From: a virus
Lineage: Duplodnaviria; Heunggongvirae; Uroviricota; Caudoviricetes
Virus record (IMG/VR): IMGVR_UViG_2541047753_000004
Length of the DNA: 54,394 nucleotides
Direction: 5' to 3' (one strand)
Shown here in pieces: positions 36,540-52,890 of the stretch (position 1 is its first letter; every line of letters starts with the position of its first letter). The notes under the pieces are model-generated. The model was not told where the DNA came from. It did not search any database and was given only the letters and a program-made list of their open reading frames with translations. The translations under genes and the position numbers were made by a program.

Positions 36540-36647
36540 AAATCAGCACGTACGAATTCAAACTCTGCCATAAAAGAACATATAAGTAATTTATTAACAT
36601 ATAGATATAGGTTATATTACAAATTGAAAAATTATTGGAGAGCAACA

Positions 36648-37514
36648 ATGAATCAAAATCCATTCTCATTCTATGACTTTCTTGGATATTTAATACCAGG
36701 TGGTTTTTTTATCCTATTAATGTATTTCTGTGGTTTGACATTCGATCTAGATATTGTTATTGACTTAAGTGAATTACTCAGAGGTCAAAGTCAAATCTTT
36801 GGCATTTTGAACTACGCTTCAATAGTTATTATATCTTATATAGCTGGACATTTTATTTCTATCACGTCAGCATTTTTTATCGAAAAATACATGAATAAAG
36901 AATTAGGATATCCTTCCAAATATCTATTTAAAAAATTGATAGATACCTCAGAAAGCATTTGTAGCCCATCATGCGATGAGAGAAGCGCTGATAAAAAAAC
37001 AAAAATAAAGAATCGCATAATCAAATGCGTATTATGTCCAATAATACTATGGGATTTTATAACACAAAAACTATGTTATTCTCAATCTCTACCATTTCAT
37101 TTAGCTAATACAACATGGTTAATGATCAAAGAAGGTTATGAGAAAAAGTTCATAACAAATCGCCAATTATTACAAGATAAAAACGGACTTGATGATGATC
37201 TCTTCAGATTGGCATATCATTATGTTTATGAGTTTTCAAAACAACATCAAACAAAAATTCAAAACTATGTTGCATTATATGGTTTTTGCAGAAACATATG
37301 TTTAATCTTTATAATTTCATTTTGGGTATCAGTTCCAACCTTTATTTATCGATTATGTACTCATAGTGATTATCTTTATAGTTTACTTTCAATAATGCTT
37401 AGCTTTTTCTTCGTCTATGTTTTCTATGTTGGTTTTGTTAAATTTTATAGAAGATATACTTTAGAAGTATTAATGGCATTTGCTGTACTTCAAAGTAACG
37501 ACACTATTCGTTAA
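36648..37514 (+). CDS. AT-rich multi-pass membrane protein (cargo gene, unknown function)
   Basis: 288 aa from ATG with GGAGAG SD; hydrophobic helices at both ends; strongly AT-rich relative to neighbours. Confidence 0.55.
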   Translation: MNQNPFSFYDFLGYLIPGGFFILLMYFCGLTFDLDIVIDLSELLRGQSQIFGILNYASIVIISYIAGHFISITSAFFIEKYMNKELGYPSKYLFKKLIDTSESICSPSCDERSADKKTKIKNRIIKCVLCPIILWDFITQKLCYSQSLPFHLANTTWLMIKEGYEKKFITNRQLLQDKNGLDDDLFRLAYHYVYEFSKQHQTKIQNYVALYGFCRNICLIFIISFWVSVPTFIYRLCTHSDYLYSLLSIMLSFFFVYVFYVGFVKFYRRYTLEVLMAFAVLQSNDTIR

Positions 37515-37555: not shown

Positions 37556-37762
37556 ATGCTGAACCTCGATTGTGTTCCTATCTCAACTTATTGCAAAGAA
37601 ACTGGCGAAACTCCTGAAGCAATAAACAAACGTGTACAGCGCGGTGTTTGGCGTGAAGGTGTTCAGGTTTTAAAGGTTGAAGGCGTTAAGGAGAGGTGGA
37701 TTGATCTTAGTGAGGTTGCAAAATGGGCCAGACAAAACTGCTCAAACTACCGCGCGGCGTAA
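37556..37762 (+). CDS. xis: Excisionase (Xis-like)
   Basis: Small basic protein immediately upstream of and overlapping int; start uncertain (37517, 37544 or 37556). Confidence 0.55.
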   Translation: MLNLDCVPISTYCKETGETPEAINKRVQRGVWREGVQVLKVEGVKERWIDLSEVAKWARQNCSNYRAA

Positions 37763-38895
37763 CAATCAGGAAACACCGCCAGGGAGAAACGATCAATATA
37801 ACTTTCACCTACAAAGGAGTTAGATGTCGTGAGCCGCTTTCCAATCTGGAAGTAACACCAAAGAACATTAAATACGCCGAGCGTACACTCGGCGAAATCC
37901 ATAATAAGATCGAAAGGGGAACATTCATTTATGCAGAATATTTTCCCCGTTCTGCTCGTTTGAAAATTTTTGGTAATGCTGCTGCAGGCAAAACGGTAAA
38001 GGTGTACCTGGACGAATATCTTGAAATCTGCGAAACAAGAAAACTTTCACCCTCTACGATTGGTGGCTATAAAAAATGCCGTAGTGCGTTAGCCTCACTT
38101 CACATTTGCCCTGCAAGTGAATTAACACCAGCAACCCTGAAAGCGTGGATTCAAAGCCAGAAAACAACCTTAAAAACCATTCGCAACCAGTTATCTTTCC
38201 TACGGTCAGCACTTGATGAAGCCGTGACCGATGGGGTACTTCAAATTAACCCCGTATCGTTAGTAACAGCTTCGCGCTACCAAAGTGATAAGTCAGAAGC
38301 AGAAAGCAGCTATGTGGTTGATCCGCTATCACCAGCAGAAGTTGATGCATTACTAGCAGCAGCCGGAAACAAACAATGGGAAAATCTGTTCCGGTTCGCC
38401 ATACATACAGGCCTGCGTAGTTCTGAATTATGTGCCCTACGATGGCATGATATCGACTTTGTTGGAAAAACAGCCCATGTTCAGAGCGCAAGTGTTGTCG
38501 GAGTTATCAAAGGAACAAAGACAAAAGCCGGTACCCGTAAAGTTGAACTGACTGAAGAAGCAATGTTGGCGTTGATAAACCAGAAGCCATTTACATTCAT
38601 GAAGGATGCTACTGTCTTTGAAGATCCAAAGACCAATAAACCCTGGGCAAGTGCTGATGCAATTAGGAAAAAAGCATGGGTGCCAACATTGCGAAAAGCA
38701 GGTATTCGTTACAGAAACCCATATCAAACCAGGCATACATTCGCCACCAGCCATATCAGCCGGGGAGCAAACCTGTTTTGGCTTGCGGCTCAAATGGGCC
38801 ATAAAGGGCCTGAAATGTTATTCAGGCACTATGGACAATACTTGAAAGAGTATGATGGGAGGGCAAGTATCAAGGATAAAAAGGCTTTATTTTAA
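37723..38895 (+). CDS. int: Tyrosine integrase (lambda Int family)
   Basis: 390 aa; C-terminal catalytic region R...HTFATSHISRGANLFWLAAQMGHKGPEMLFRHYGQY with conserved R, H-x-x-R and Tyr. Confidence 0.9.
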   Translation: MGQTKLLKLPRGVTIRKHRQGETINITFTYKGVRCREPLSNLEVTPKNIKYAERTLGEIHNKIERGTFIYAEYFPRSARLKIFGNAAAGKTVKVYLDEYLEICETRKLSPSTIGGYKKCRSALASLHICPASELTPATLKAWIQSQKTTLKTIRNQLSFLRSALDEAVTDGVLQINPVSLVTASRYQSDKSEAESSYVVDPLSPAEVDALLAAAGNKQWENLFRFAIHTGLRSSELCALRWHDIDFVGKTAHVQSASVVGVIKGTKTKAGTRKVELTEEAMLALINQKPFTFMKDATVFEDPKTNKPWASADAIRKKAWVPTLRKAGIRYRNPYQTRHTFATSHISRGANLFWLAAQMGHKGPEMLFRHYGQYLKEYDGRASIKDKKALF

Positions 38896-39486
38896 GTCAT
38901 TATGCCAATCGTCTACTGTTTGAAACCAAATTTTTAACCTTTGCATAAAGGTACGATCCTTTTTGGGAGGGTGGTACCTTTGAAAAGAAGTATGTAACGC
39001 TTCGATAACTCCCATACAAGCATCAATTACTTCTTGTGCTTTAACCGGGCGATCGGTATCTGAAAGCTTGTGAGCGACCTCACAATCCAGAGTTGCTTTC
39101 TCTAGTACAGATGAGAACACCTCGTCAGGTATATACAGTCCTCTGCTTTCCAAAATGCAAATCAGTTTGGAAACTTGTTGAGCTTTAGCCAAGATAGTTA
39201 ACAAGTATGAAACAGAAGCCTTTGTTCTATCCTTTTGCAACCTTAACAATCGATGCTTTGATGCTCTAATTTTAGGTTGAGTTGTCTGACTGAGCCAATA
39301 GTTAGAAGAAATATCAGAAATTTCAATAACTAACTTTGAAATAGCATCAATAATTGATTTCGATTCAGAACGTGTCGCCAGTTTTACAGAATTATTGTAC
39401 GCAACTCGCCATCCAATGAAAACTAAGCAGACGCTAACTACTGTGATACACCACGAATACTGTCCTATTTGTGCTACTAATGACAT
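38887..39486 (-). CDS. Single-pass membrane protein, unknown function (cargo operon gene 3)
   Basis: N-terminal TM helix WCITVVSVCLVFIGW, helical soluble domain; last gene of a 3-gene minus-strand operon; start at internal ATG 39486 (ORF track begins at TTG 39504). Confidence 0.5.
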   Translation of the reverse strand: MSLVAQIGQYSWCITVVSVCLVFIGWRVAYNNSVKLATRSESKSIIDAISKLVIEISDISSNYWLSQTTQPKIRASKHRLLRLQKDRTKASVSYLLTILAKAQQVSKLICILESRGLYIPDEVFSSVLEKATLDCEVAHKLSDTDRPVKAQEVIDACMGVIEALHTSFQRYHPPKKDRTFMQRLKIWFQTVDDWHNDLK

Positions 39487-39514
39487 TGGTTCCGTACTGA
39501 TCAACTATCGCCTC

Positions 39515-39841
39515 TTATACTCTTTCTGGTTGTGCTAAATCAATAAATTTATCAATCTGTTCTTTGTAGAACGGAACATCACTTTTTATAATCAAACGTG
39601 CTTTAACGTTGGCTTTAGGTATCCCTTCCTTACGGATGAGACCTCCAAACGCCTCTTCTAAGAAAGAGGAACCAACACCCAGTGCTATACCGCGAAAATC
39701 AACCACAATCTCCTGTTCAGTACCCTTCAGCGCAGGCACCAAAAACTCTCTACGAAATCTTTCCGCACTGTGTGGGCTATCCGTTGTGTAACGTCCGAAA
39801 GGTGTTCTGGAGAACTCCTTCGCTATGACGATATTTCTCAT
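39515..39841 (-). CDS. STAS-like small protein (DUF4325-like) (cargo operon gene 2)
   Basis: 108 aa; IVVDFRGIALGVGSSFLEEAFGG resembles the STAS / anti-sigma-antagonist core; AGGAG SD; starts 4 nt after upstream stop. Confidence 0.55.
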   Translation of the reverse strand: MRNIVIAKEFSRTPFGRYTTDSPHSAERFRREFLVPALKGTEQEIVVDFRGIALGVGSSFLEEAFGGLIRKEGIPKANVKARLIIKSDVPFYKEQIDKFIDLAQPERV

Positions 39842-39845
39842 AAAA

Positions 39846-40757
39846 TCATCTCCTGGGAACCAGCGACCATTGTAGTAAAGTACCCGGTATGTACTCAGCT
39901 AGCTTCTCACATCGAGGACTACTGTCATTAGAATTATAGCTATAACGAGCCCTTCCTGTTAGTATCAGAAGTGTCTCATTATCCTCACAACCTGCCCCAA
40001 TAGGTCTCTTGATATCTTCAGAGCCATTTCCCCGTCCGGAACCAACAAAGCGGGATTCCCCTACTAACATAGCTCTTTCCACAGAAGATACTTCGTTTTG
40101 AATGCTATGACCATCACCATTAGGCACGAAACTTCTATAAATCCCCAATCCAAGGTCACAAACGATAAAAACGACTTTATTTTCATCACGATTGAACCAA
40201 GCGCACTGCCACCATCGTTTACCTTTGAGAAGCTGAATATCTGACTCGAACCCCTCATCTTCATACGCATGATGAGAAACATTGAGCAAAGCTTCACTAA
40301 TCGCTGTCAGCAGTAAGCCTAACTGTTCATTATTAAGCAGAGCACTTTTCTGCAGCATGAGTACTGTTTCAACAATATGCTCGTAAGGTTCGACAGCTGA
40401 CTGAAAGTATCGTTCCTCCCTCGTAAGTGCATTCAGTTTCTCTTCTGTGCCAGCAAGCAAAGCACGAGCAAGTCCAGTACCAACGATCCATCTATGCCCA
40501 GATGGGTTATCATCCTTTTTAGGCCATTTAAAACGTATAAAATTAGGGTCCCGGGTTAAAAATTGAGCTCTATTTACTATGGCAAAGAACAGTACCGATG
40601 CCGCAGCTGAGGCAAATTTTACCTTGGACAAATCAACTATAACTCGACCTTTATTTTTTACTCCAATCGATTCAATCGAGTTGATGAAGTTCAATGTCCC
40701 AGCCCTAGAATCATCTGAGTAAATGCAAAATTTGCTTGGGGGTACCAGTATGGTCAT
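39846..40757 (-). CDS. GHKL-type ATPase/kinase with N-terminal STAS-like region (cargo operon gene 1)
   Basis: Bergerat-fold motifs: N-box EALLNVSHHAY, G1 DLGLGI, G2 GSGRGNG; N-terminal RVIVDLSKVKFASAAASVLFFAI resembles STAS beta-strand/helix. Confidence 0.6.
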   Translation of the reverse strand: MTILVPPSKFCIYSDDSRAGTLNFINSIESIGVKNKGRVIVDLSKVKFASAAASVLFFAIVNRAQFLTRDPNFIRFKWPKKDDNPSGHRWIVGTGLARALLAGTEEKLNALTREERYFQSAVEPYEHIVETVLMLQKSALLNNEQLGLLLTAISEALLNVSHHAYEDEGFESDIQLLKGKRWWQCAWFNRDENKVVFIVCDLGLGIYRSFVPNGDGHSIQNEVSSVERAMLVGESRFVGSGRGNGSEDIKRPIGAGCEDNETLLILTGRARYSYNSNDSSPRCEKLAEYIPGTLLQWSLVPRR

Positions 40758-40909
40758 AGCGATGTCATTCTTATACGATGGATTTATAGATTATCTACTA
40801 TTCATAGTTGGTTATGAAGACTGGGATATAACAGTAAAAGATACGTGTAAGATCCGCAAGATAGTTAATGTCGAAAAAAATCATTAATTACATCAAGTTA
40901 GTGATATTT

Positions 40910-40941
40910 GGACTCGGGTTCAACTCCCGCCAGCTCCACCA
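40910..40941 (+). other. ssrA: 3'-terminal ~32 nt of ssrA (tmRNA): attachment-site repeat
   Basis: GGACTCGGGTTCAACTCCCGCCAGCTCCACCA matches the ssrA 3' end (T-arm, acceptor, CCA) with one mismatch; upstream sequence is not ssrA. Confidence 0.75.
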
Positions 40942-40974
40942 CTTGCTCTTCCGGATACGTCCGGAGAAATCCTG

Positions 40975-41010
40975 AAAGCCCGCATGGCACAAGCTTTGCG
41001 GGCTTTTTTG
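40975..41010 (+). terminator. Intrinsic terminator (ssrA terminator-like)
   Basis: AAAGCCCGCA...TGCGGGCTTTTTTG. Confidence 0.6.
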
Positions 41011-41125
41011 TGTCTATCTTTGTCCGAGGATATCCAGCTAAATCCAGTGATTATTGGTATATGTTTAGGTATACGGTAAGATGTATACCTAAAAGCGTAT
41101 ACCAATACTCTGAGGTAGGATAATC

Positions 41126-42319
41126 GTGGCACGTACAACACGCCCTCTTACTAACACTGAACTATCACGTGCTAAAGCAACTGAAAAGGATCTAACGCTA
41201 CATGATGGTGATGGGCTTTTTCTACTCATAAAAACGAACGGAAGGAAGTTGTGGCGTTTCCGATACCAGAAGCCTGTATCAAAACAGAGAACCATGATTA
41301 GTTTAGGAACGTTCCCCGCCCTATCTCTGGCTGAGGCCAGAAACGTGCGTGCTGAGTATCTTTCCTTATTAGCCCGGGGTATTGATCCACAAACATACAG
41401 TAAGCAAGTCTCAGAACATCAACAGATTGCGATTGATAGTATTTTTTCAAAAGTTGCCACAAATTGGTTTGCCATAAAAAGCAATAACGTCACACCTGAT
41501 TATGCAAAGGATATATGGCGATCCTTAGAGAGGGACATTTTCCCTGCTATCGGTGAGATTCCTGTTCAGGAAATAAAAGCCCGCACATTAATTGAAGCCC
41601 TAGAGCCAATTAAAGCTCGTGGGGCACTTGAGACTGTTCGTCGTTTAGTACAACGTATTAATGAAATTATGATTTATGCTGTTAATACTGGTCTGATAGA
41701 TGCTAACCCTGCTTCAGGCATTGGTATGGCATTTGAAAAACCTAAAAAACAGCACATGCCAACGCTTAGACCTGAAGAATTACCGAAACTCATGCGTTCA
41801 ATAACAATGTCTAATTTATCTATTCCAACTCGTTGTTTGATTGAATGGCAACTCTTAACACTTGTACGCCCTGCAGAAGCTTCCAATGCAAAGTGGATAG
41901 AGATCGATTTCGAAGCTAAACTATGGATAATACCAGCCAATAGAATGAAGGCAAAGCGGGAACATATTGTTCCATTATCACTTCAGACATTAGATATTCT
42001 TGAAATTATGAAGCCAATCAGTTCACATCGAGAATATATTTTTCCTAGCAGGAATAACCCCAATCAACCAATGAACAGTCAGACGGCAAATGCAGCCTTA
42101 AAGCGCATCGGTTATGGTGGTAAGTTGGTTGCACACGGACTGCGTTCGATAGCAAGTACAGCAATGAATGAAGCTGGTATAAATCCAGATATTATCGAAG
42201 CAGCACTTTCCCATTGTGATAAAAATGAGGTTAGAAGAGCATATAATCGAACAACCTACTTGGAACAAAGAAAAGAGCTTATGAATTGGTGGGGTAGTTT
42301 CATTTCAAAAAACAAATAA
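41126..42319 (+). CDS. int: P4-type tyrosine integrase
   Basis: 397 aa, GTG start, N-terminal MARTTRPLT...DGDGL...LGTFPALSLAEAR typical of P4/CP4-57 IntA; adjacent to ssrA 3' end. Confidence 0.9.
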   Translation: MARTTRPLTNTELSRAKATEKDLTLHDGDGLFLLIKTNGRKLWRFRYQKPVSKQRTMISLGTFPALSLAEARNVRAEYLSLLARGIDPQTYSKQVSEHQQIAIDSIFSKVATNWFAIKSNNVTPDYAKDIWRSLERDIFPAIGEIPVQEIKARTLIEALEPIKARGALETVRRLVQRINEIMIYAVNTGLIDANPASGIGMAFEKPKKQHMPTLRPEELPKLMRSITMSNLSIPTRCLIEWQLLTLVRPAEASNAKWIEIDFEAKLWIIPANRMKAKREHIVPLSLQTLDILEIMKPISSHREYIFPSRNNPNQPMNSQTANAALKRIGYGGKLVAHGLRSIASTAMNEAGINPDIIEAALSHCDKNEVRRAYNRTTYLEQRKELMNWWGSFISKNK

Positions 42320-42329
42320 GGATATAGTG

Positions 42330-43445
42330 ATGAATAATAAAGATTTTCCATGCAAAGCCTCAAATATCTATGATAAAAATATAAATTTTTTATTTGGCTC
42401 AGGCTCCTCTGCTTCATATATTCCTACTCTCTATCTAGATAAAAACACTACTTATGAAACATTACTTACACATGAGGATTGTGAGGGTGTCAAGGACTTC
42501 ATATTATGTTCTTATTTCAATAATATCATTAGAAAAACATTTTGTGTTAAACCTAATAGTGAAGACAAAAAATATAATTCTACTTTAGCAAACTATAGCT
42601 ACTTTATTGATGAACTAATCAAATTATTAGAGAAAAAAGGGGCAAATCAAATAAGGCGAGCGAATATTTTTACAACAAATTATGATCTTTTTTTCGAAAC
42701 TGCGGCTGATGATATTTTAAATAATAAAACATTTCATTTCAATGACGGTGGTCTAGGTTTCAAAAGCCGGAAATTGAACATTAGTAATTTTCATATTACT
42801 GCTTGGCATCAAGGTACGCATGATATGTACAAACATGAAATTCCAACAGTAAACTTAATAAAAATGCATGGTTCTGTTTCTTGGTGTAGAGATATTAATG
42901 AAACGATTAGTATTAATTACACTCAAGAAGAACCACCAAAGTTTAGACTAGATACAAAAAAAGACATTAATGATTTAGTCACCACCTTAAACGAAACAAG
43001 CGATAATCTCGTTAGTTATTTAAATTTATCTACAAGCGATCAAGAAACACTTCAAGAATTTAAATCTTATTACAACAACTTAGCTATAGTTAGCCCAACT
43101 AAAGAAAAATTTTCTGAAACTGTTTTTCAACAACATTATTACCAATGTTTACGATTGCTAAGTTATGAATTAGAGAAACCACAAACTGTATTAATTTGTT
43201 TTGGTTTTTCTTTTCAAGATGAACACATACGTGAGATTATAAAAAGATCATTAAGTAACCCTACTCTTAAGGTCTTTGTTTTTTGCTACTCAAAATCCAG
43301 CATGGAAAGTATACAGCACATTATCAATGACCAACGAATAACCTATATTCTTCCTATAGAAGATGATCATACAATTTCATTTAAACCGTTTATAGATAGA
43401 GTATTTAGATCTGAACACGGAGATTGGATTACATGGAAGAACTAA
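42330..43445 (+). CDS. SIR2-like domain protein (NADase-type defence effector)
   Basis: FLFGSGSS (Rossmann Gly-rich), TTNYDLFFE, MHGSVSW motifs; AT-rich; AAGGA SD. Confidence 0.7.
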   Translation: MNNKDFPCKASNIYDKNINFLFGSGSSASYIPTLYLDKNTTYETLLTHEDCEGVKDFILCSYFNNIIRKTFCVKPNSEDKKYNSTLANYSYFIDELIKLLEKKGANQIRRANIFTTNYDLFFETAADDILNNKTFHFNDGGLGFKSRKLNISNFHITAWHQGTHDMYKHEIPTVNLIKMHGSVSWCRDINETISINYTQEEPPKFRLDTKKDINDLVTTLNETSDNLVSYLNLSTSDQETLQEFKSYYNNLAIVSPTKEKFSETVFQQHYYQCLRLLSYELEKPQTVLICFGFSFQDEHIREIIKRSLSNPTLKVFVFCYSKSSMESIQHIINDQRITYILPIEDDHTISFKPFIDRVFRSEHGDWITWKN

Positions 43446-45205
43446 TTGTTGGTAATGTTACCCAAATAAAGGGCACAACAGTAAGGGCCAAAATCAATCA
43501 TGACTTTTTTCAGTCAACATACTTTCATAAAGGTAAAATACTACGAGGTATCTCTATAAATGAATTTGTTTTGATTAAAAAAGGTTATCACGATATCGTC
43601 GGAAAGATTATTGGTGAAGAAATTGTTGAAAACATCAATATTAGAAGCGATGAAATTGAACAAAAAAAATATGACCGTTTTGTAGAACTGAATATTTTAG
43701 GGTATTTTTTTGAGAGTTCATTTTATTCCGGTATAAAATTTTTACCAATGATAAATGACAGCTTACACTTAATTTCAGACGAGAAGATATCAGAAATATA
43801 TAAGTTTAGCAAAAACACTAAAGCACCTTTAATAAACATAGGGAAATCTATGTTAGAGGAGTTGCCAATTAACATACCAATAAATGGTATTTTTAATTCA
43901 CACATAGGCATATTTGGAAACACTGGAAGTGGCAAGTCCAACACTCTTGCAAAACTTTATCACTCTCTAATAAACCTTATAACAACAAAAGAAAGAGTTA
44001 TATCAAAATCAAGTTTTGTTTTGATTGATTTTAATGGTGAATACAGCACATTTGCTACGTCATTTCCAGATTTGTGCGAACAAGTCAATCTCAACACAAA
44101 GAATTCCGGTGATAAACTAACTTTCACTGATGATGAATTTTGGGATGATGAATTATTATCGGTATTGTTTTCTGCAACTGAAAAAACTCAAAAGCCATTT
44201 CTTAGTCATTTAATTAAAAATAGAGAAAAATATAATGGTAAATTGGAGGATTACTTACAAACAACTATCCACAGTATGTTTTCTCCTAATCCACACAGGG
44301 AAACAATAAATTTATTAAAAAGCCTTGCCCCTTACTTTTCAGAGAGAGCACAGGGTAAAATACTTGAAGAGTTATCACAATTCTCATGGCATTCTGGGCA
44401 AAATAAGTATTTGCACTCAAAATACAACTTCATTGATAAAATGGAAGATGCTTTACAGGCTTTAGATGCAACATATAAATCCAAGTTTAAGTTAAACAGC
44501 GTTTTTGATGAAGTTGCAATCCGATCTATTCTACAACTAATTAATTCAGTATCACGTAATTATGTACAATATGATCATATATATCCGCTAATTAATAAAA
44601 TAACGGCAATGACTCCTGCCCTATCCAAAGTAATTAATATCAGAAACGAAACAAAAAATAAAAAACCTATATATATAGTGTCATTAAAAGAGTGCAATCA
44701 ATTAATCAAAAAAACCATTCCAATGATGCTTGCAAAATGTTCATTCTTAGAGCACAAGTCATCTAAAAATACAAAGGAAAGCTTCCACCTAATTATAGAT
44801 GAAGCACACAACATATTGTCTGAAACATCTGTCAGAGAGGCGGAAACATGGAAAGATTATAGGCTTGAGTTATTTGAGGAAATAATAAAAGAGGGAAGGA
44901 AGTTTGGGTTCTTCGTTACAATTTCGAGTCAACGACCTTTTGACATCTCTCCCACAATTGTTTCCCAACTTCATAATTATTTTATTCATCGATTAGTGAA
45001 CGAAAATGATTTGTTTTTGTTAAAAAATACTTTAAGCACCCTTGATGCGGCATCAAGATCACTAATTCCAACACTTCCTCCTGGTGGGTGTATAGTTTCA
45101 GGAACAGCTTTCCACACCCCATTACTTGTTCAAATCGACAGATTAGCTGAGGAAAATGCTCCTAACAGCGATACTCTTGATTTAGAAAAATTGTGGGATA
45201 TTTAA
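43424..45205 (+). CDS. HerA-like ATPase (DUF87)
   Basis: Walker A GIFGNTGSGKSNT, Walker B LIIDEAHN; overlaps SIR2 gene by 22 nt. Confidence 0.75.
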   Translation: MDYMEELIVGNVTQIKGTTVRAKINHDFFQSTYFHKGKILRGISINEFVLIKKGYHDIVGKIIGEEIVENINIRSDEIEQKKYDRFVELNILGYFFESSFYSGIKFLPMINDSLHLISDEKISEIYKFSKNTKAPLINIGKSMLEELPINIPINGIFNSHIGIFGNTGSGKSNTLAKLYHSLINLITTKERVISKSSFVLIDFNGEYSTFATSFPDLCEQVNLNTKNSGDKLTFTDDEFWDDELLSVLFSATEKTQKPFLSHLIKNREKYNGKLEDYLQTTIHSMFSPNPHRETINLLKSLAPYFSERAQGKILEELSQFSWHSGQNKYLHSKYNFIDKMEDALQALDATYKSKFKLNSVFDEVAIRSILQLINSVSRNYVQYDHIYPLINKITAMTPALSKVINIRNETKNKKPIYIVSLKECNQLIKKTIPMMLAKCSFLEHKSSKNTKESFHLIIDEAHNILSETSVREAETWKDYRLELFEEIIKEGRKFGFFVTISSQRPFDISPTIVSQLHNYFIHRLVNENDLFLLKNTLSTLDAASRSLIPTLPPGGCIVSGTAFHTPLLVQIDRLAEENAPNSDTLDLEKLWDI

Positions 45206-45219
45206 TATCGCTACGCGCA

Positions 45220-45238
45220 GTGCTTTCCCCGCCTCGCC
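45220..45238. other. cos cohesive-end sequence (P2/P4 type)
   Basis: gtgctttccccgcctcgcc is the reverse complement of the 19-nt GGCGAGGCGGGGAAAGCAC I recall for P2/P4. Confidence 0.7.
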
Positions 45239-45402
45239 CGCACGCTTTGCGGGGCGGTTTTAATGCAGTTGCACTGACACGCTCAGACCGCGCCGGGAAT
45301 GGCGCGGTCTGCAGAAAATGAGGCAGGGAAACGCATGCAAAGCCATGCACCTTATCGATGCATGGCTTTTTTCAGTAAAAACAGGCGGATTTTCGGGAAA
45401 TT

Positions 45403-45975
45403 TTACACAGACTGACGTGATGCCAGTTGCGCACTTTTACGCGAAAAAATCATGTTCTGCGCAGGGGTAAATTTTTCACGGCTGTCGTCCACCGAAGCCG
45501 CGTCAGGCCTGAATCCGATGGTCGTTAAAATGTCGCTATCCTGTGCGGAATAATTAATTTTTTCCCCCTTCGCAAGCCAGGACAGAAGGGCTTCACGCAG
45601 GGCATCTGTGGCACGCTGTATGGCACAGTTTCGGGCAATGGCCGTCAGCTCACTGTAGCCCATCAGCTCCGGTGCCAGTGCCGCCGCCAGTGCTGTGCCG
45701 TGCTGCTGCATAAAATCATTCAGCCGGTCGCGGATGCTGATGTGCTGAACGGCTTCATGCGAACGAATATAACGACCAGCGGCCTGATTCACCTGCCATT
45801 TTCTGACTTCGATAATATTGCGTAATTCGTCCAGGCGACTGACGTTTCTGCCTTCTCCTGACAGAAGCCGCAGATATTCCTGTTCGGCCGCTGCCAGCTC
45901 ATTTTTGCGTTGCAGCCATGCTGCTTTGTTATTCTGACAGGTGTCAAAGGCCTGCTGTAAGGCTGTGCTTTCCAT
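45403..45975 (-). CDS. psu: Polarity suppression protein Psu
   Basis: 190 aa, length and sequence as recalled for P4 Psu. Confidence 0.85.
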   Translation of the reverse strand: MESTALQQAFDTCQNNKAAWLQRKNELAAAEQEYLRLLSGEGRNVSRLDELRNIIEVRKWQVNQAAGRYIRSHEAVQHISIRDRLNDFMQQHGTALAAALAPELMGYSELTAIARNCAIQRATDALREALLSWLAKGEKINYSAQDSDILTTIGFRPDAASVDDSREKFTPAQNMIFSRKSAQLASRQSV

Positions 45976-46048: not shown

Positions 46049-46549
46049 TCATTCCAGACGCAGCGAATATGATTGTGTTTTTAAGCGTACTGGCGGCAGT
46101 TCCTGTTTTTCATGCAGGCTTTCTGCCAGTTCGTCCGGCGTGACCGGGCGGACAATGAAACGGTTGATGGTCTGAAGCGTTTTAAACACCAGACCACAGC
46201 CCGGATCCGTGCACACATAAAAACGCTCGGTGACTTCCTGAGACAGACGCCGCGATGTTCTTGACAGTGCAAGGCCTTTACATCTCCGACAACAATATCC
46301 GGTAACAAGCATTCTTTTCGGGCGTTTCATACTGCCGGAGGCTGACGTCAGTGAATCGCGGTATCTCTGTTTGCCTGAAATGTATTCCATTCCTGAATCT
46401 TTACTGTCAGAGAAAAAGCTTTCACTCGCTTCAAATGTCGCAGAGCAATAAATATTCCGGCACTGTGCAATCATTATCTTGGTGCCATCGTCCATGAAAT
46501 GTGCGCGGCGGGTGTGAGCAACATGACCACACGACGGGCAGTAAATCAT
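46049..46549 (-). CDS. delta: Late gene activator Delta (Ogr/Delta zinc-finger family)
   Basis: 166 aa with two CxxC...CxxC zinc-finger units (MIYCPSCGH..., ...CCRRCKG...CTDPGCG). Confidence 0.85.
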   Translation of the reverse strand: MIYCPSCGHVAHTRRAHFMDDGTKIMIAQCRNIYCSATFEASESFFSDSKDSGMEYISGKQRYRDSLTSASGSMKRPKRMLVTGYCCRRCKGLALSRTSRRLSQEVTERFYVCTDPGCGLVFKTLQTINRFIVRPVTPDELAESLHEKQELPPVRLKTQSYSLRLE

Positions 46550-47280
46550 GACAGCAGTCCTCTGGCCTTAAGCACTGCTCCCTGCTGGTCTATTTTGTCC
46601 TGCCACACCTTGCGCTGTGCCGGTGTGCCTGCCACCTCATAATCCATGTGAGGAAGTGTTGCCGCTGACAGTCCGGTCAGCCGGAGAACCGGCTCGCCGG
46701 TGAGGCTGATTTGCATCTGTTTAATTTTCTGTTCCAGCGATGATTTCACCTGCTGCATGACAGCCTTTTCCGGTGCGACGTAGCCCTGATGGCCGGTGGT
46801 GTTGGCGAGCGGATTTTCCTGTACCAGAATGCTCAGATGCATTGCCCGGACAAGCGCCTCACAGGTTTCATTCAGGGCGTGTTCCAGCTCATGCTCTGCA
46901 TACAGACTCAGAAGGTGATGATGTGCCTTCCGGTAGGCGGTGGCCGTGCTGTCACACGCCCCTTTCAGGCGTTCGCGTTCAAAATTCAGCACCACGGCCA
47001 GATTGTCATATTCCTGTACCAGTTCCCGGCGTGCCACGCGCTCAATGTGGCGCTGTTTCAGCTCGTCGCTCAGGACACCACCGGCTGCACGAAAGGCCGT
47101 GCGCCAGTCGTCAGCGTCGTTTCCGTCGGCCTGCGCCAGCGCATTTTTTTCCTGCTCTGCCCGTTCAATGGCCGTGACGGTCTCATCCATCAGGCGGGCG
47201 TTCTCAAGATGGGCGGCTCTGGCCTTTTCCAGTTGTGCCAGTGCGGGTTGCAGATATTCAGGGATGGTGTTGTCAGACAT
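46546..47280 (-). CDS. sid: Capsid size determination protein Sid
   Basis: 244 aa from MSDNTIPEY; position in psu-delta-sid operon. Confidence 0.8.
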   Translation of the reverse strand: MSDNTIPEYLQPALAQLEKARAAHLENARLMDETVTAIERAEQEKNALAQADGNDADDWRTAFRAAGGVLSDELKQRHIERVARRELVQEYDNLAVVLNFERERLKGACDSTATAYRKAHHHLLSLYAEHELEHALNETCEALVRAMHLSILVQENPLANTTGHQGYVAPEKAVMQQVKSSLEQKIKQMQISLTGEPVLRLTGLSAATLPHMDYEVAGTPAQRKVWQDKIDQQGAVLKARGLLS

Positions 47281-47298
47281 TTTCCGGCTCCTCGTCAC

Positions 47299-48099: not shown

Positions 48100-48695
48100 T
48101 GATGCCCGCTCTGCAAAAACGCCCTTTTTCTGGCTTGCCTTTTTCCGGCATTTGCGGATATAGTTTTTCCGCTGCCGCAAAATCGGCAGCCGGGCGTGGA
48201 AACCCGAGCAATTCACAGGCGACATATGACGCGCCATGCGTCTTTTTTTGTGTCGCAATCAACGCCACAGAGCGCCAGATTATGGTGTGGTGTGTGGTCA
48301 GTCGTGCAGATGGCATTCCGTGCATCCTGCCCGCGTCCGCTCATTATGCCGCAGAGTCAATGGTAGCTCAGGCGGGGCAGCCTCCGGGCTGGCCGGTATC
48401 CTGTGAAGCCGGTATTTCCACCCCCGTCTGGGCTATCGCCATCGAGCGTGGAAACTCCGGCGATAGCGTTATTTGCTATTCACAGGAGGCTGCCATCATG
48501 GCTACAACCCTTACCCCCTCACACCCTGAATTTGTCTTTGTGTTTGCGGCTGTCCGTCGCGCAGACCGTCATCCCCGTATCTGTATGCTTCGCACCGTCG
48601 CCGGTGATGAACGCAGTGCCCGCCGTTCCCTTGTCCGTGACTATGTGCTCTCCCTTGCTGCCCGTCTGCCGGTGGTGGAGGTGTCCCGTGCGTAA
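48096..48695 (+). CDS. Hypothetical protein (P4 orf199-like)
   Basis: 199 aa from MMMPALQ; size and position. Confidence 0.45.
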
Positions 48696-49893: not shown

Positions 49894-52227
49894 ATGAAAA
49901 TGAACGTAACCGCCACCGTCAGCCATGCGCTCGGCCACTGGCCGCGTATTCTCCCGGCGCTGGGGATTCAGGTGCTGAAGAACCGTCATCAGCCCTGTCC
50001 GGTCTGTGGCGGGAGTGACCGCTTCCGTTTTGATGACAGGGAGGGGCGTGGCACCTGGTACTGCAATCAGTGTGGTGCCGGTGACGGCCTGAAACTGGTT
50101 GAAAAGGTGTTTGGTGTTTCCCCGTCCGACGCGGCCGCAAAGGTGGCTGCCGTGACCGGCAGCCTGCCACCGGCTGACCCGGCAGTGACGGCCGCCGCCG
50201 TTGCTGAAACAGAAGCCGCCCGGAAGAACGCCGCCGCACTGGCACAAACCCTGATGGCGAAAACCCGTCCCGGAACCGGTAACGCCTACCTGACCCGCAA
50301 GGGCTTTCCCGGCCGGGAATGCCGGATGCTGACCGGCACACACAGAGCCGGTGGCGTGAGCTGGCGCGCCGGTGACCTTGTGGTGCCACTGTATGACGAC
50401 AGCGGCGAACTGGTTAACCTTCAGTTAATCAGTGCTGACGGCCGTAAGCGCACCCTGAAAGGCGGACAGGTCAGGGGCACCTGTCACATCCTTGAAGGAC
50501 AGAATCAGACCGGAAAACGTCTGTGGATAGCGGAGGGATACGCGACCGCACTTACCGTGCATCACCTGACCGGTGAAACGGTGATGGTGGCGCTTTCTTC
50601 CGTGAACCTCCTTTCTCTGGCCAGCCTTGCCCGGCAGAAGCATCCGGCCTGTCAGATTGTCCTTGCCGCAGACCGTGACCTCAGCGGTGACGGCCAGAAA
50701 AAAGCCGCCGCAGCCGCAGATGCGTGTGAAGGTGTTGTTGCCCTGCCGCCGGTCTTCGGTGACTGGAATGATGCCTTCACGCAGTACGGCGGGGAAGCCA
50801 CCCGTAAGGCCATTTACGATGCCATCCGGCCACCGGCTGAAAGCCCGTTCGACACCATGAGCGAAGCGGAGTTTTCCGCCATGAGTACCAGCGAAAAGGC
50901 CATGCGTATCTATGAGCATTACGGCGAGGCGCTCGCGGTCGATGCCAACGGCCAGCTTCTGTCCCGCTATGAAAATGGTGTCTGGAAGGTGCTGCCGCCA
51001 CAGGACTTTGCCCGGGATGTGGCCGGGCTGTTTCAGCGGCTGCGCGCGCCGTTCTCCTCCGGGAAGGTGGCCTCCGTGGTGGACACCCTGAAGCTGATTA
51101 TTCCGCAGCAGGAAGCCCCCTCCCGCCGCCTGATTGGCTTTCGTAACGGCGTGCTCGACACGCAGAACGGCACGTTCCACCCGCACAGTCCGTCACACTG
51201 GATGCGCACCCTGTGCGATGTGGATTTCACCCCACCGGTGGAAGGGGAAACGCTGGAAACCCACGCCCCCGCGTTCTGGCGCTGGCTTGACCGTGCCGCC
51301 GGTGGCCGTGCGGAAAAACGCGACGTGATTCTGGCCGCACTGTTTATGGTGCTGGCAAACCGCTACGACTGGCAGCTCTTTCTGGAGGTGACCGGTCCCG
51401 GCGGCAGCGGCAAAAGTATCATGGCCGAAATAGCCACCCTGCTGGCCGGGGAGGATAACGCCACGTCGGCCACCATTGAGACGCTGGAATCCCCGCGTGA
51501 ACGTGCCGCGTTAACTGGCTTCTCACTGATACGCCTGCCGGACCAGGAAAAATGGAGCGGCGACGGTGCCGGACTCAAGGCCATCACCGGCGGCGATGCG
51601 GTGTCCGTGGACCCGAAATACCGGGATGCGTACTCCACGCATATCCCGGCGGTGATTCTGGCCGTGAACAATAACCCGATGCGCTTCACCGACCGCAGCG
51701 GCGGCGTGTCACGCCGGCGGGTGATTATTCACTTCCCGGAACAGATAGCCCCGCAGGAGCGCGACCCGCAGCTTAAGGACAAAATCACCCGCGAGCTGGC
51801 GGTCATCGTGCGTCACCTGATGCAGAAATTCAGCGACCCGATGCTCGCCCGGTCACTGCTTCAGTCCCAGCAGAACTCAGACGAGGCGCTGAACATCAAA
51901 CGGGATGCCGACCCGACGTTTGATTTTATCGGCTATCTGGAAACCCTGCCGCAGACCAGCGGCATGTATATGGGGAACGCCAGTATCATCCCGCGCAATT
52001 ACCGTAAATACCTCTATCACGCCTATCTGGCCTACATGGAGGCAAACGGCTACCGGAATGTACTCAGTCTGAAAATGTTCGGGCTGGGGCTGCCGGTGAT
52101 GCTGAAGGAATACGGACTGAATTACGAGAAGCGCCATACCAAACAGGGGATACAGACCAACCTGACGCTGAAAGAGGAAAGCTACGGCGACTGGCTGCCA
52201 AAATGTGACGACCCTGCGACAGCCTGA
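49894..52227 (+). CDS. alpha: Alpha primase-helicase
   Basis: 777 aa; N-terminal zinc-binding CPVCGGSDRFRFDD...YCNQCG primase region, central Walker A GPGGSGKS helicase region. Confidence 0.9.
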   Translation: MKMNVTATVSHALGHWPRILPALGIQVLKNRHQPCPVCGGSDRFRFDDREGRGTWYCNQCGAGDGLKLVEKVFGVSPSDAAAKVAAVTGSLPPADPAVTAAAVAETEAARKNAAALAQTLMAKTRPGTGNAYLTRKGFPGRECRMLTGTHRAGGVSWRAGDLVVPLYDDSGELVNLQLISADGRKRTLKGGQVRGTCHILEGQNQTGKRLWIAEGYATALTVHHLTGETVMVALSSVNLLSLASLARQKHPACQIVLAADRDLSGDGQKKAAAAADACEGVVALPPVFGDWNDAFTQYGGEATRKAIYDAIRPPAESPFDTMSEAEFSAMSTSEKAMRIYEHYGEALAVDANGQLLSRYENGVWKVLPPQDFARDVAGLFQRLRAPFSSGKVASVVDTLKLIIPQQEAPSRRLIGFRNGVLDTQNGTFHPHSPSHWMRTLCDVDFTPPVEGETLETHAPAFWRWLDRAAGGRAEKRDVILAALFMVLANRYDWQLFLEVTGPGGSGKSIMAEIATLLAGEDNATSATIETLESPRERAALTGFSLIRLPDQEKWSGDGAGLKAITGGDAVSVDPKYRDAYSTHIPAVILAVNNNPMRFTDRSGGVSRRRVIIHFPEQIAPQERDPQLKDKITRELAVIVRHLMQKFSDPMLARSLLQSQQNSDEALNIKRDADPTFDFIGYLETLPQTSGMYMGNASIIPRNYRKYLYHAYLAYMEANGYRNVLSLKMFGLGLPVMLKEYGLNYEKRHTKQGIQTNLTLKEESYGDWLPKCDDPATA

Positions 52228-52278
52228 CCCACCTGACCGGCATCTGCCGGTCTTTTTTTATCCCTGAATTCCCCGAAG

Positions 52279-52551
52279 GTGAACAATCCACTGTTCACCC
52301 TTCACCGTATATTCACCTGTTATCACACTGAAATTAAAAGAGAAAAACGAAAGGTGAACAGTGTGAACAATCAAATCAAAAAAAACTTTTTTTCTCCCTG
52401 TGTGATTTCAGTACGGGGGATTAATCACCGGTATGAGTCACACCGGCAGAATGCCGGAGGTGAAGAATCGAATGTTCACCCTTCACCCATTATTCACCAC
52501 CTATCATACTGAAATAAAAGGAGAAAAAAGAAAGGTGAACAGTGTGAACAG
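52279..52551. repeat. crr (cis replication region): two ~120-bp direct repeats rich in TGTTCACC octamers
   Basis: Duplicated block ...TGTTCACCCTTCACC...ATTCACC...GAAAGGTGAACAGTGTGAACA separated by ~60 bp, downstream of alpha. Confidence 0.75.
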
Positions 52552-52712
52552 TTCTTTCGAAAAAAAATTTTTTTTCTGTACGATATAGCATCAATCCAAG
52601 TAAAAATGCGCTTTCATTTCACATTAACTTACAGCCATTGGTATACGATTAGGTATACGTACAAAAACTGAATTAAACAAAATCATTAAAAATCAAAACA
52701 ATACAGCATTTA

Positions 52713-52735
52713 TTCAAACTCCGCCAGCCCACCAA
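52713..52735 (+). other. Degenerate ssrA 3'-end repeat (candidate right junction of the satellite)
   Basis: ttcaaactccgccagcccaccaa aligns to ssrA TTCAACTCCCGCCAGCTCCACCA with about 4 differences. Confidence 0.4.
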
Positions 52736-52861: not shown

Positions 52862-52890
52862 AAAGCCCGCTGATGCGGGCTTTTTTATTG
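52862..52890 (+). terminator. Intrinsic terminator
   Basis: AAAGCCCGC tgat GCGGGC TTTTTT. Confidence 0.55.

What the first reader, a model, noticed from the sequence alone, without database searches (positions are those of the whole stretch)
42330..45205. SIR2 + HerA-ATPase pair in the P4-like int-cos hotspot
Two overlapping AT-rich genes sit between the P4-type integrase and cos/psu, the known variable hotspot of P4-like satellites. One carries SIR2-type motifs (GSGSS, NYD, HGS), the other HerA motifs (Walker A GNTGSGKS, Walker B DEAH). This matches the described SIR2-HerA anti-phage family, so it is known rather than new, but it confirms this region as a defence island.
Basis: partly seen in the sequence, partly recalled or inferred. 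Interest (0 to 1): 0.55.

Follow-up and report, generated by a model that had tools for sequence, protein, structure and literature searches.

The report
SIR2-HerA defence pair in P4-like satellite
Two intact, AT-rich genes filling the variable slot of a P4-like phage satellite encode a SIR2 enzyme that degrades NAD+ and a HerA ATPase, a known two-gene anti-phage system already catalogued at this exact spot in E. coli, so the finding is correct but ordinary.

Summary
The observation and the interpretation both hold. Window 42330-43445 (+) encodes a 371-aa SIR2 protein. Window 43433-45205 (+) encodes a 590-aa HerA ATPase. The genes overlap by 13 nt and have 29-32% GC, against 53-61% in the satellite core. 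They fill the whole interval between a P4-type integrase (stop at 42319) and an exact P2/P4 cos site (45220-45238), which is followed by psu, delta, sid, the CI/C4 RNA and alpha. PADLOC profiles call SIR2 (4e-65) and HerA (1e-192). In the whole PDB, a profile of the SIR2 subfamily matches only the SIR2 subunits of the three solved SIR2-HerA complexes. Catalytic Asn117 and His180 and Walker A and B are invariant across relatives. The gene pair is conserved, with identities that rise and fall together, from E. coli to Pantoea, Gilliamella and Listeria. Rousset et al. 2022 already name SIR2+HerA as a known system of the P4 psu-int hotspot, and their table lists near-identical proteins (WP_040073453 + WP_032172094). 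What remains open: the pair belongs to a divergent subfamily, not the Nezha lineage and probably not "type III". No phage assay or biochemistry for this subfamily could be traced.

The parts
40910..40941 (+). attL of the P4-like element. It is a copy of the 3' end of ssrA (tmRNA), with no full tmRNA gene in the window.
   Evidence: An exact 25-nt match to the ssrA 3' end lies at 40917-40941. From here rightwards the sequence is identical to the ssrA-int junction of E. coli P15-385; to the left it diverges. ARAGORN and Rfam find no tmRNA in the window.
41126..42319 (+). P4-type tyrosine integrase
   Evidence: Pfam Arm-DNA-bind_3, Phage_int_M and Phage_integrase. It is 100% identical to the integrase next to ssrA in P15-385.
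42330..43445 (+). SIR2 effector gene (371 aa), a predicted NADase
   Evidence: PADLOC SIR2 PDLC04089, 4.1e-65. Pfam SIR2_2, 45.6 bits. The subfamily profile hits only SIR2-HerA SIR2 chains in the PDB. The AF2 model (pLDDT 86) gives SIR2-HerA SIR2 subunits as its top 38 Foldseek hits. N117 and H180 align to the catalytic N226 and H287 of S. aureus Sir2 and are invariant in 25 relatives.
43433..45205 (+). HerA-family ATPase gene (590 aa). It overlaps the SIR2 gene by 13 nt.
   Evidence: PADLOC HerA PDLC04097, 1.1e-192 over the full length. Pfam DUF87, 66 bits. The best PDB profile hit is S. aureus SIR2-HerA HerA, 1.3e-38. The top Foldseek hits are all defence HerAs. Walker A G162-S169, D199, Walker B D456-H459 and R501 are invariant in 23 relatives.
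45220..45238 (-). P2/P4 cos core, the right edge of the hotspot, 14 nt after the HerA stop codon
   Evidence: Exact 19-nt match, with 0.01 matches expected by chance.
45339..45373 (+). Hairpin followed by a T-run between cos and the end of psu. It looks like a terminator for plus-strand transcripts leaving the cassette. A second strong hairpin lies at 45282-45312.
   Evidence: RNA folds of -16.1 kcal/mol (z -3.6) and -25.8 kcal/mol (z -5.9). The sequence was read. Function is inferred.
45403..45975 (-). psu (polarity suppression protein)
   Evidence: Pfam Psu, 1.3e-88.
46049..47298 (-). delta (Ogr/Delta zinc finger, 46049-46549) and a sid-like gene (46546-47298)
   Evidence: ORFs. Annotated as 'ogr/Delta-like zinc finger' and 'glycoprotein 3' at the same positions in P15-385.
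48158..48443 (+). P4 immunity RNA region (C4/CI antisense RNA, isrK, a1b1 targets)
   Evidence: Rfam RF01695 76.6 bits, RF01394 74.9 bits and RF03163 50.2 bits, all above their gathering scores.
49894..52227 (+). alpha primase-helicase
   Evidence: 777-aa ORF. Annotated as 'primase-helicase zinc-binding domain-containing protein' in P15-385, 98.7% identical.
52273..52574 (+). Two 121-nt direct repeats (83% identical) rich in TGTTCACC-type iterons, resembling the P4 crr
   Evidence: Repeat family D1; sequence read. The identification as crr rests on my knowledge of P4.
52713..52734 (+). Degenerate copy of the ssrA 3' end, the probable attR of the satellite
   Evidence: TTCAAACTCCGCCAGCCCACCA, read. 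An integrase arm-like repeat ATTGGTATA(N)TAGGTATACG occurs near both ends, at 41053 and 52637. Inference.

Best explanation
The two genes are an intact SIR2-HerA anti-phage system carried as the single cargo of the int-cos hotspot of an 11.8-kb P4-like satellite. That satellite is integrated at an ssrA 3'-end copy, in tandem with an SfI/SfII-like prophage. By analogy with the solved systems, HerA should form a hexameric ATPase that docks onto a double ring of SIR2 subunits. On infection, a phage cue (phage proteins or DNA ends, in the systems studied) is sensed through HerA. The SIR2 active site (N117, H180) is then released to hydrolyse NAD+ to ADP-ribose and nicotinamide, possibly along with HerA- or SIR2-linked DNA nicking and ATP consumption. 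The infected cell stops growing and the phage fails to spread (abortive infection). This protects the satellite's host lineage from competing phages. What is shown here: gene integrity, family and fold membership, conservation of the catalytic residues, conservation and co-divergence of the pair, and location in the hotspot. What is inferred: complex formation, NADase activity, the trigger, the abortive outcome, and co-transcription with int.
For: The PADLOC and Pfam calls are strong. The SIR2 subfamily profile hits only the three SIR2-HerA SIR2 proteins in the PDB, at 9.5e-21, 1.6e-20 and 7.9e-13. Foldseek of the pLDDT-86 model gives 38 top hits that are all SIR2-HerA SIR2 chains (E 5e-15 to 8e-10), followed by a 10^5-fold gap to SPARSA, Hst2 and ThsA. 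The HerA profile and fold are closest to defence HerAs. The catalytic N and H align with S. aureus Sir2 N226 and H287. The SIR2 motifs GSGxS, TTNYD, HGS and GFSFxDxH, and the HerA Walker A and B, are invariant in relatives down to about 38% and 44% identity respectively. The pair stays adjacent in other hosts, and the SIR2 and HerA identities rise and fall together: 99/99.8, 75/77, 66/73, 50/49 and 38/37% in E. coli P15-385, E. coli S21, Pantoea, Gilliamella and Listeria. The mechanism of the family is published: NADase activation on HerA binding and a supramolecular complex (PMC11514289, PMC11472057), and abortive infection and trigger gating in E. coli subtypes (PMC13434337). Placement in the P4 hotspot matches Rousset et al. 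2022 (PMC9122126).
Against: No experiment on this subfamily could be traced. It scores far below NCBIfam's anti-phage SIR2 and HerA equivalog cut-offs: 80 against 500 bits, and 119 against 800 bits. It is under 20% identical to Nezha. In the 2026 E. coli survey only four of eight Sir2-HerA clusters protected against a 110-phage panel, and I could not determine which cluster this one is. The HerA model is only moderate (pLDDT 72; the ATPase core at residues 458-547 is below 50), so its TM-scores are low at 0.3-0.4. No sigma-70-like promoter stands out upstream of the cassette: 16 sites found against 17.9 expected.
Confidence: 0.88

Rival explanations
1. It is a true SIR2-HerA homologue but effectively silent or very narrow in range. 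It would be one of the E. coli clusters that gave no protection in the published panel, so it contributes little or no defence in practice.
For: Only four of eight E. coli Sir2-HerA clusters were active against 110 phages (PMC13434337). The system is rare, found in 15 of 5,426 complete E. coli genomes. A Pantoea copy has a split HerA, so decay does happen.
Against: Both ORFs are intact here. All catalytic and nucleotide-binding residues are invariant across distant relatives. The pair has been kept as a unit from Enterobacterales to Firmicutes, which argues for selection on function.
Confidence: 0.1
2. Defence works mainly through HerA-driven DNA nicking and ATP consumption, with SIR2 acting as a regulator rather than as the killing NADase.
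For: In type III Sir2-HerA a HerA nickase (D218) is essential and ATP gates the NADase. Nuclease activity is reported for the Paenibacillus complex. HerA D199, about 30 residues after the Walker A lysine as in type III, is invariant here.
Against: The SIR2 NAD-binding and catalytic residues are invariant. In the systems studied the NADase is required or is the final effector. No sequence of type III was available, so D199 could not be aligned with D218.
Confidence: 0.07
3. It is not a defence system. Instead HerA would be a DNA translocase used by the satellite for its own replication or packaging, with a sirtuin regulator.
For: HerA belongs to the FtsK/HerA translocase clade and gives weak hits to terminase and FtsK profiles. 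The cassette lies next to cos.
Against: The same pair occurs outside satellites, in Listeria and Gilliamella. The slot is a variable hotspot holding unrelated systems in other P4-like elements. The best matches are defence-specific profiles and structures.
Confidence: 0.02

Closest known systems
SIR2+HerA in the psu-int hotspot of P4-like satellites (Rousset et al. 2022, PMC9122126)
   Same: The element type, slot and domain pair (SIR2_2 + DUF87) are the same. Their Table S1A lists WP_040073453 + WP_032172094, which are the proteins annotated in E. coli P15-385. Those proteins are 99.2% and 99.8% identical to the window's.
   Different: There is a difference of one to three amino acids. Here the satellite sits in tandem behind a prophage rather than directly next to ssrA. 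That study catalogued this pair but does not appear among its tested constructs.
E. coli Nezha / Gao-type SIR2-HerA (PDB 8J4U, 8SU9, 8SXX, 8UAE)
   Same: It has the same two-gene architecture. Its SIR2 is the best sequence hit in the PDB (2e-13 for the single sequence, 9.5e-21 for the profile) and is among the top fold hits. The TTNYD and HGS catalytic motifs align.
   Different: Identity is only 17-19%. NCBIfam equivalog scores are far below the cut-offs. The SIR2 here is shorter, 371 against 415 aa. The 2026 classification treats lineages this divergent as separate subtypes whose HerA proteins cannot be swapped.
Staphylococcus aureus Sir2-HerA (PDB 8YHO, 8YHX; PMC11514289)
   Same: It is the best HerA profile hit (1.3e-38) and the top HerA fold hit. 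Catalytic Sir2 N226 and H287 align with N117 and H180 here.
   Different: Identity is about 15-20%. SaSir2 is 428 aa and has extra N-terminal sequence.
E. coli Sir2-HerA types I-III (Zhang et al. 2026, PMC13434337)
   Same: These are divergent E. coli Sir2-HerA lineages that act by abortive infection. The window's system probably belongs to one of the eight clusters defined there.
   Different: The residue numbering of type III (Sir2 N238, HerA K188 and D218) does not fit N117, K168 and D199 here. No sequences or accessions were available to assign the cluster.
DUF4297-HerA defence system (PDB 9C1M, 8XAU, 8ZIQ)
   Same: Its HerA is as close by sequence as the SIR2-HerA HerAs (3e-29 for the single sequence, 5.5e-38 for the profile).
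   Different: The partner gene here is a SIR2, not a DUF4297/Cap4-like nuclease.

Membership tests
SIR2-HerA anti-phage system (Gao et al. 2020; PADLOC definition) | Adjacent, co-oriented SIR2 and HerA genes forming one operon | tested here: met
   The genes overlap by 13 nt on the same strand. The same adjacency is seen in five other loci.
SIR2-HerA anti-phage system (Gao et al. 2020; PADLOC definition) | The SIR2 protein matches SIR2 profiles of the system and has the SIR2-HerA-type fold | tested here: met
   PDLC04089 at 4.1e-65. The PDB profile search returns only SIR2-HerA SIR2s. The top 38 Foldseek hits are SIR2-HerA SIR2s.
SIR2-HerA anti-phage system (Gao et al. 2020; PADLOC definition) | The HerA protein matches HerA/DUF87 profiles, with an N-terminal beta-barrel plus a RecA-like ATPase carrying Walker A and B | tested here: met
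   PDLC04097 at 1.1e-192 over the full length. DUF87 scores 66 bits. Residues 5-113 are predicted as all beta-strand. GNTGSGKS and DEAH are invariant. The fold evidence is weakened by low pLDDT in residues 458-547.
SIR2-HerA anti-phage system (Gao et al. 2020; PADLOC definition) | Catalytic Asn and His of the SIR2 NADase are present | tested here: met
   N117 and H180 align with SaSir2 N226 and H287 and are invariant in 25 relatives.
SIR2-HerA anti-phage system (Gao et al. 2020; PADLOC definition) | [quoted passage not shown] | not testable with these tools
   Only monomer prediction is available. This needs co-purification, cryo-EM and a NADase assay.
SIR2-HerA anti-phage system (Gao et al. 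2020; PADLOC definition) | Confers phage resistance with NAD+ depletion | not testable with these tools
   This is an experimental test. No published test of this subfamily was found.
Nezha-type SIR2-HerA (NCBIfam NF042942 SIR2_antiphage, NF042943/NF042944 HerA_antiphage equivalogs) | Score at or above the curated equivalog cut-off | tested here: not met
   80.1 bits against a cut-off of 500, 119.2 against 800, and 110.9 against 850.
Type III E. coli Sir2-HerA (PMC13434337) | Same lineage as the studied type III proteins (Sir2 N238; HerA K188 and D218) | tested here: inconclusive
   The numbering here is N117, K168 and D199, which argues against type III. No type III sequence was available for alignment.
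P4-like phage satellite | Core set of int, psu, delta, sid, alpha, cos and the CI RNA in P4 order | tested here: met
   int, Psu and the alpha ORF. cos is an exact match. C4, isrK and a1b1 RNAs are found. Matching annotation in P15-385. The span from attL to attR is about 11.8 kb.
P4 psu-int defence hotspot (Rousset et al. 2022) | Variable cargo lying between int and the cos site next to psu | tested here: met
   The cassette occupies 42330-45205, 10 nt after int and 14 nt before cos. Its GC of 0.29-0.32 contrasts with the core. Listed in Table S1A.
DUF4297-HerA system | HerA paired with a DUF4297/Cap4-like nuclease | tested here: not met
   The partner is SIR2_2. There is no room for a third gene in the interval.

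The most novel reading that the evidence does not exclude
This AT-rich lineage (PADLOC SIR2 PDLC04089 / HerA PDLC04097; under 20% identical to Nezha) could be a Sir2-HerA subtype that has not been characterised biochemically, with its own trigger and gating logic. Unlike most hotspot cargo, it has stayed linked to the ssrA-specific P4 integrase during divergence from E. coli to Pantoea (int 75-80%, SIR2 66-75%, HerA 73-77% identical). It has no recognisable promoter of its own, which would imply read-through expression from int.
Probability: 0.3. Interest if true: 0.3.

Novelty: already known. Interest (0 to 1): 0.12.

Why it matters
The result correctly annotates a defence cassette and shows the window holds a tandem prophage plus P4-like satellite array at the tmRNA hotspot. 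It adds nothing conceptually new: the system, its location in P4 satellites and near-identical copies of these proteins are already in the literature. Its modest value is as a pointer to a Sir2-HerA subfamily for which I found no published phage assay or biochemistry. This subfamily is widespread in Enterobacterales and has relatives at about 40% identity in Firmicutes. Its trigger specificity could be compared with Nezha and types I-III.

Tried and rejected
(1) NCBIfam equivalogs for anti-phage SIR2 and HerA. Hits were far below the cut-offs, so membership of the Nezha-type lineage was rejected.

(2) Assigning the system to one of the eight E. coli clusters or types I-III of PMC13434337. No supplementary files are held and the text gives no accessions. 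Only residue numbering argues against type III.

(3) The promoter and terminator scan of 40900-45500 was uninformative: 16 promoter-like sites against 17.9 expected. A terminator-like hairpin after cos was found by reading and folding instead.

(4) The search for a tRNA or tmRNA gene as the integration site found none in the window. Only a 3' fragment of ssrA is present.

(5) The genome-contig scan with the SIR2 protein returned just one relative, in Gilliamella, because the method needs near-exact peptides. The wider distribution came from the protein searches.

(6) PADLOC on neighbouring prophage genes, to test the 'defence island' idea, gave no hits apart from one weak Csx27-like match.

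(7) A full-text search for the RefSeq protein accessions found no paper naming them in its main text.

(8) The HerA structure model was only of moderate quality, so fold TM-scores are low and were used only as supporting evidence.
Full report
**Observation**

The window has two long plus-strand ORFs at 42327/42330-43445 and 43424/43433-45205. The ATG starts match RefSeq annotation in near-identical loci and have ribosome-binding sites (AAGGA, GGAG). With those starts the products are 371 aa and 590 aa, and the genes overlap by 13 nt.
- SIR2: GSGSS at 23-27, NYD at 117-119, HGS at 180-182.
- HerA: GNTGSGKS at 162-169, DEAH at 456-459.

GC content is 0.293 and 0.319. That compares with 0.405 for the integrase, 0.53-0.61 for psu, sid and alpha, and 0.493 for the whole window.

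**Family assignment**

- PADLOC-DB gives SIR2 (best model PDLC04089, 4.1e-65, plus 23 further SIR2 models) and HerA (PDLC04097, 1.1e-192 across the whole length, plus 13 further HerA models and one other, mad8).
- Pfam gives SIR2_2 (45.6 bits, cut-off 24.5) and DUF87/HerA central domain (66.1 bits, cut-off 23.2).
- NCBIfam's anti-phage SIR2 and HerA equivalog models are hit only weakly: 80 against 500 bits, and 119 against 800 bits. The proteins are therefore not orthologues of the lineages those models were built from.
- In the PDB, the single SIR2 sequence matches only three proteins. These are the SIR2 subunits of E. coli Nezha (8J4U/8SU9, 2e-13), S. aureus (8YHX, 2e-10) and Paenibacillus (8W9L, 7e-7) (PDB identities).
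- A profile of 25 subfamily members strengthens those same three hits to 9.5e-21, 1.6e-20 and 7.9e-13, and finds nothing else at E below 0.01.
- HerA matches defence HerAs of both SIR2-HerA and DUF4297-HerA systems, as well as archaeal HerA.

**Structure**

- The AlphaFold2 model of SIR2 has pLDDT 86 and pTM 0.87. Its 38 best Foldseek hits in the PDB are all SIR2 subunits of those three SIR2-HerA complexes (E 5e-15 to 8e-10, TM 0.45-0.63). A large gap then follows to SPARSA, Hst2 and ThsA, at E of 2.5e-5 or worse.
- The HerA model is weaker: pLDDT 72, and below 50 in residues 458-547. It shows an N-terminal all-beta domain followed by an alpha/beta ATPase. Its top hits are all defence HerAs, led by S. 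aureus and Nezha at 2e-22 and 8e-21. TM-scores are low (0.3-0.4), so I treat this only as support.

**Active sites**

In the HMMER alignment to S. aureus Sir2, the window's T116, N117 and H180 align with T225, N226 and H287. N226 and H287 are that enzyme's catalytic residues, and T225 contacts ADP-ribose.

Invariant residues among 25 SIR2 relatives, down to 38% identity:
- G23, S24, G25, S27
- T115, T116, N117, Y118, D119
- H180, G181, S182
- F291-F295, D297, H299

Invariant residues among 23 HerA relatives, down to 44% identity:
- Walker A, G162-S169
- D199
- Walker B, D456-H459
- the SQRP arginine, R501

Both enzymes therefore look catalytically competent.

**Conservation of the pair**

The SIR2 subfamily has 1,610 hits at E of 1e-5 or better. 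It is widespread in Enterobacterales, including Escherichia, Enterobacter, Klebsiella, Salmonella, Pectobacterium, Pantoea, Serratia and Yersinia. Relatives at about 40% identity occur in Listeria, Planomicrobium and others, and almost all are annotated only as 'SIR2 family protein'. HerA shows the same distribution.

The two genes are adjacent in every locus inspected, and their identities to the window's proteins rise and fall together:

| Locus | SIR2 identity | HerA identity |
|---|---|---|
| E. coli P15-385 | 99.2% | 99.8% |
| E. coli S21 | 75% | 77% |
| Pantoea dispersa | 66% | 73% |
| Gilliamella | 50% | 49% |
| Listeria innocua | 38% | 37% |

The cassette stays AT-rich (GC 0.28-0.33) even where the surrounding locus has 0.46-0.51 GC, as in the E. 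coli S21 and Pantoea loci. One Pantoea genome has a split HerA, which is a decayed copy.

**Context**

The cassette lies in a P4-like satellite. The parts, in order, are:
- a copy of the ssrA 3' end at 40910-40941, acting as attL
- a P4-type integrase at 41126-42319
- the SIR2-HerA cassette
- an exact P2/P4 cos core at 45220-45238
- two hairpins, the second with a T-run
- psu (Pfam 1.3e-88), delta and a sid-like gene on the minus strand
- the C4/CI RNA, isrK and a1b1 targets
- the alpha primase-helicase at 49894-52227
- two 121-nt crr-like repeats
- a degenerate ssrA-end copy at about 52713-52734

The cassette starts 10 nt after the int stop codon and ends 14 nt before cos, so no further gene fits in the slot. 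No sigma-70-like promoter stands out upstream, and in Pantoea int and SIR2 overlap. I therefore infer co-transcription with int or a promoter inside int.

In 12 of 5,426 complete E. coli genomes the cassette is at least 99.6% identical, and in 3 more it is 76% identical. All 15 copies are chromosomal. In the two loci inspected, P15-385 and S21, the cassette lies in a P4-like element directly downstream of ssrA.

In this window the satellite instead follows an SfI/SfII-like myovirus prophage, whose right end carries the ssrA fragment. No complete genome in the collection has this exact junction. Tandem mobile elements at the tmRNA locus are a described E. coli hotspot (PMC10121019).

**Comparison with the literature**

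Rousset et al. 2022 defined the P4 psu-int hotspot next to cos. They name 'SIR2 + HerA (Gao et al., 2020)' among the known systems found there. Their supplementary table of hotspot loci lists 'SIR2_2 + DUF87: WP_040073453 + WP_032172094'. These are the proteins annotated in P15-385, which differ from the window's by three residues and one residue. The pair does not appear among their tested constructs.

Mechanistic work on other lineages shows the following:
- HerA binding allosterically activates the Sir2 NADase in a supramolecular complex (PMC11514289).
- A dodecamer or tetradecamer of SIR2 plus a HerA hexamer carries NADase, ATPase, helicase and nuclease activities (PMC11472057).
- E. coli has eight Sir2-HerA clusters. 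Nezha and types I-III gave abortive-infection-type defence. Type III is triggered by T7 Gp2.5 and Gp5.9 and is gated by ATP and DNA ends (PMC13434337).

The window's system is not Nezha. Its residue numbering does not fit type III. I could not tell which of the remaining clusters it belongs to.

**Verdict**

This is an intact member of the SIR2-HerA family in the known P4 hotspot, and it was already catalogued there. The remaining uncertainty is experimental. No phage assay or biochemistry could be traced for this particular subfamily, and half of the E. coli clusters tested in 2026 showed no activity against the panel used. Interest is low. The only open angle is subtype-specific trigger and gating, and the unusually stable linkage of this cassette to the ssrA-type integrase.

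Noticed in passing
window 38887-40757 (- strand): Three cargo genes lie between the integrase (37723-38895) of an SfI/SfII-like prophage and its ssrA-fragment attR. They are a 303-aa histidine-kinase-like ATPase (HATPase_c_2, 9e-5, below cut-off), a 108-aa STAS-like DUF4325 protein (6e-14) and a 205-aa protein with no domain. None hits PADLOC, their PHROGs families have unknown function, and no literature links DUF4325 to defence. The pair resembles an anti-sigma / anti-anti-sigma switch sitting in a typical accessory-gene slot, so it is a candidate uncharacterised module.
   Followed up: partly
window 36624-37514 (+): A very AT-rich (about 28% GC) 296-aa ORF inside the prophage. It has only a weak PADLOC match to Csx27 (1.4e-5) and a full-length match to a PHROG of unknown function.
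   Followed up: no
window 1-41017: Most of the window left of the satellite is an SfI/SfII/vB_EcoM-689R6-like myovirus prophage (97% identity over about 20 kb). Its right end carries the ssrA 3' fragment. The prophage and the P4-like satellite therefore form a tandem array at the tmRNA hotspot. This prophage is not P2-like and so is probably not the satellite's helper (the helper point rests on my own knowledge of P4 biology). No complete E. coli genome in the collection has this exact junction.
   Followed up: partly
window 52273-52393 and 52454-52574: Two 121-nt direct repeats (83% identical) containing repeated TGTTCACC-like motifs, downstream of alpha. They resemble the P4 cis replication region, crr.
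   Followed up: no
window 52713-52734: A degenerate copy of the ssrA 3' end (TTCAAACTCCGCCAGCCCACCA), followed at 52864-52890 by a terminator-like hairpin. It is the probable attR of the satellite. An integrase arm-like repeat occurs near both ends, at 41053-41075 and 52637-52659.
   Followed up: no
L005 8110-9883 (Pantoea dispersa GCA_031453715.1): The HerA homologue of the same cassette is split into 268-aa and 309-aa ORFs in this genome, while a second Pantoea contig (L004) has it intact. This is an example of decay of the system.
   Followed up: no
window 45162-45350 (- strand): A 62-aa ORF spans the HerA 3' end, cos and a hairpin. RefSeq annotates it as a hypothetical protein in most of the related genomes. 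It is most likely a spurious call over the cos region.
   Followed up: no
P0122 versus P0024 (Phytobacter diazotrophicus): The closest non-E. coli HerA (85% identity) and a SIR2 of only 54% identity are both reported from Phytobacter diazotrophicus. This means either two different cassettes in that species or partner exchange. It was not resolved.
   Followed up: no
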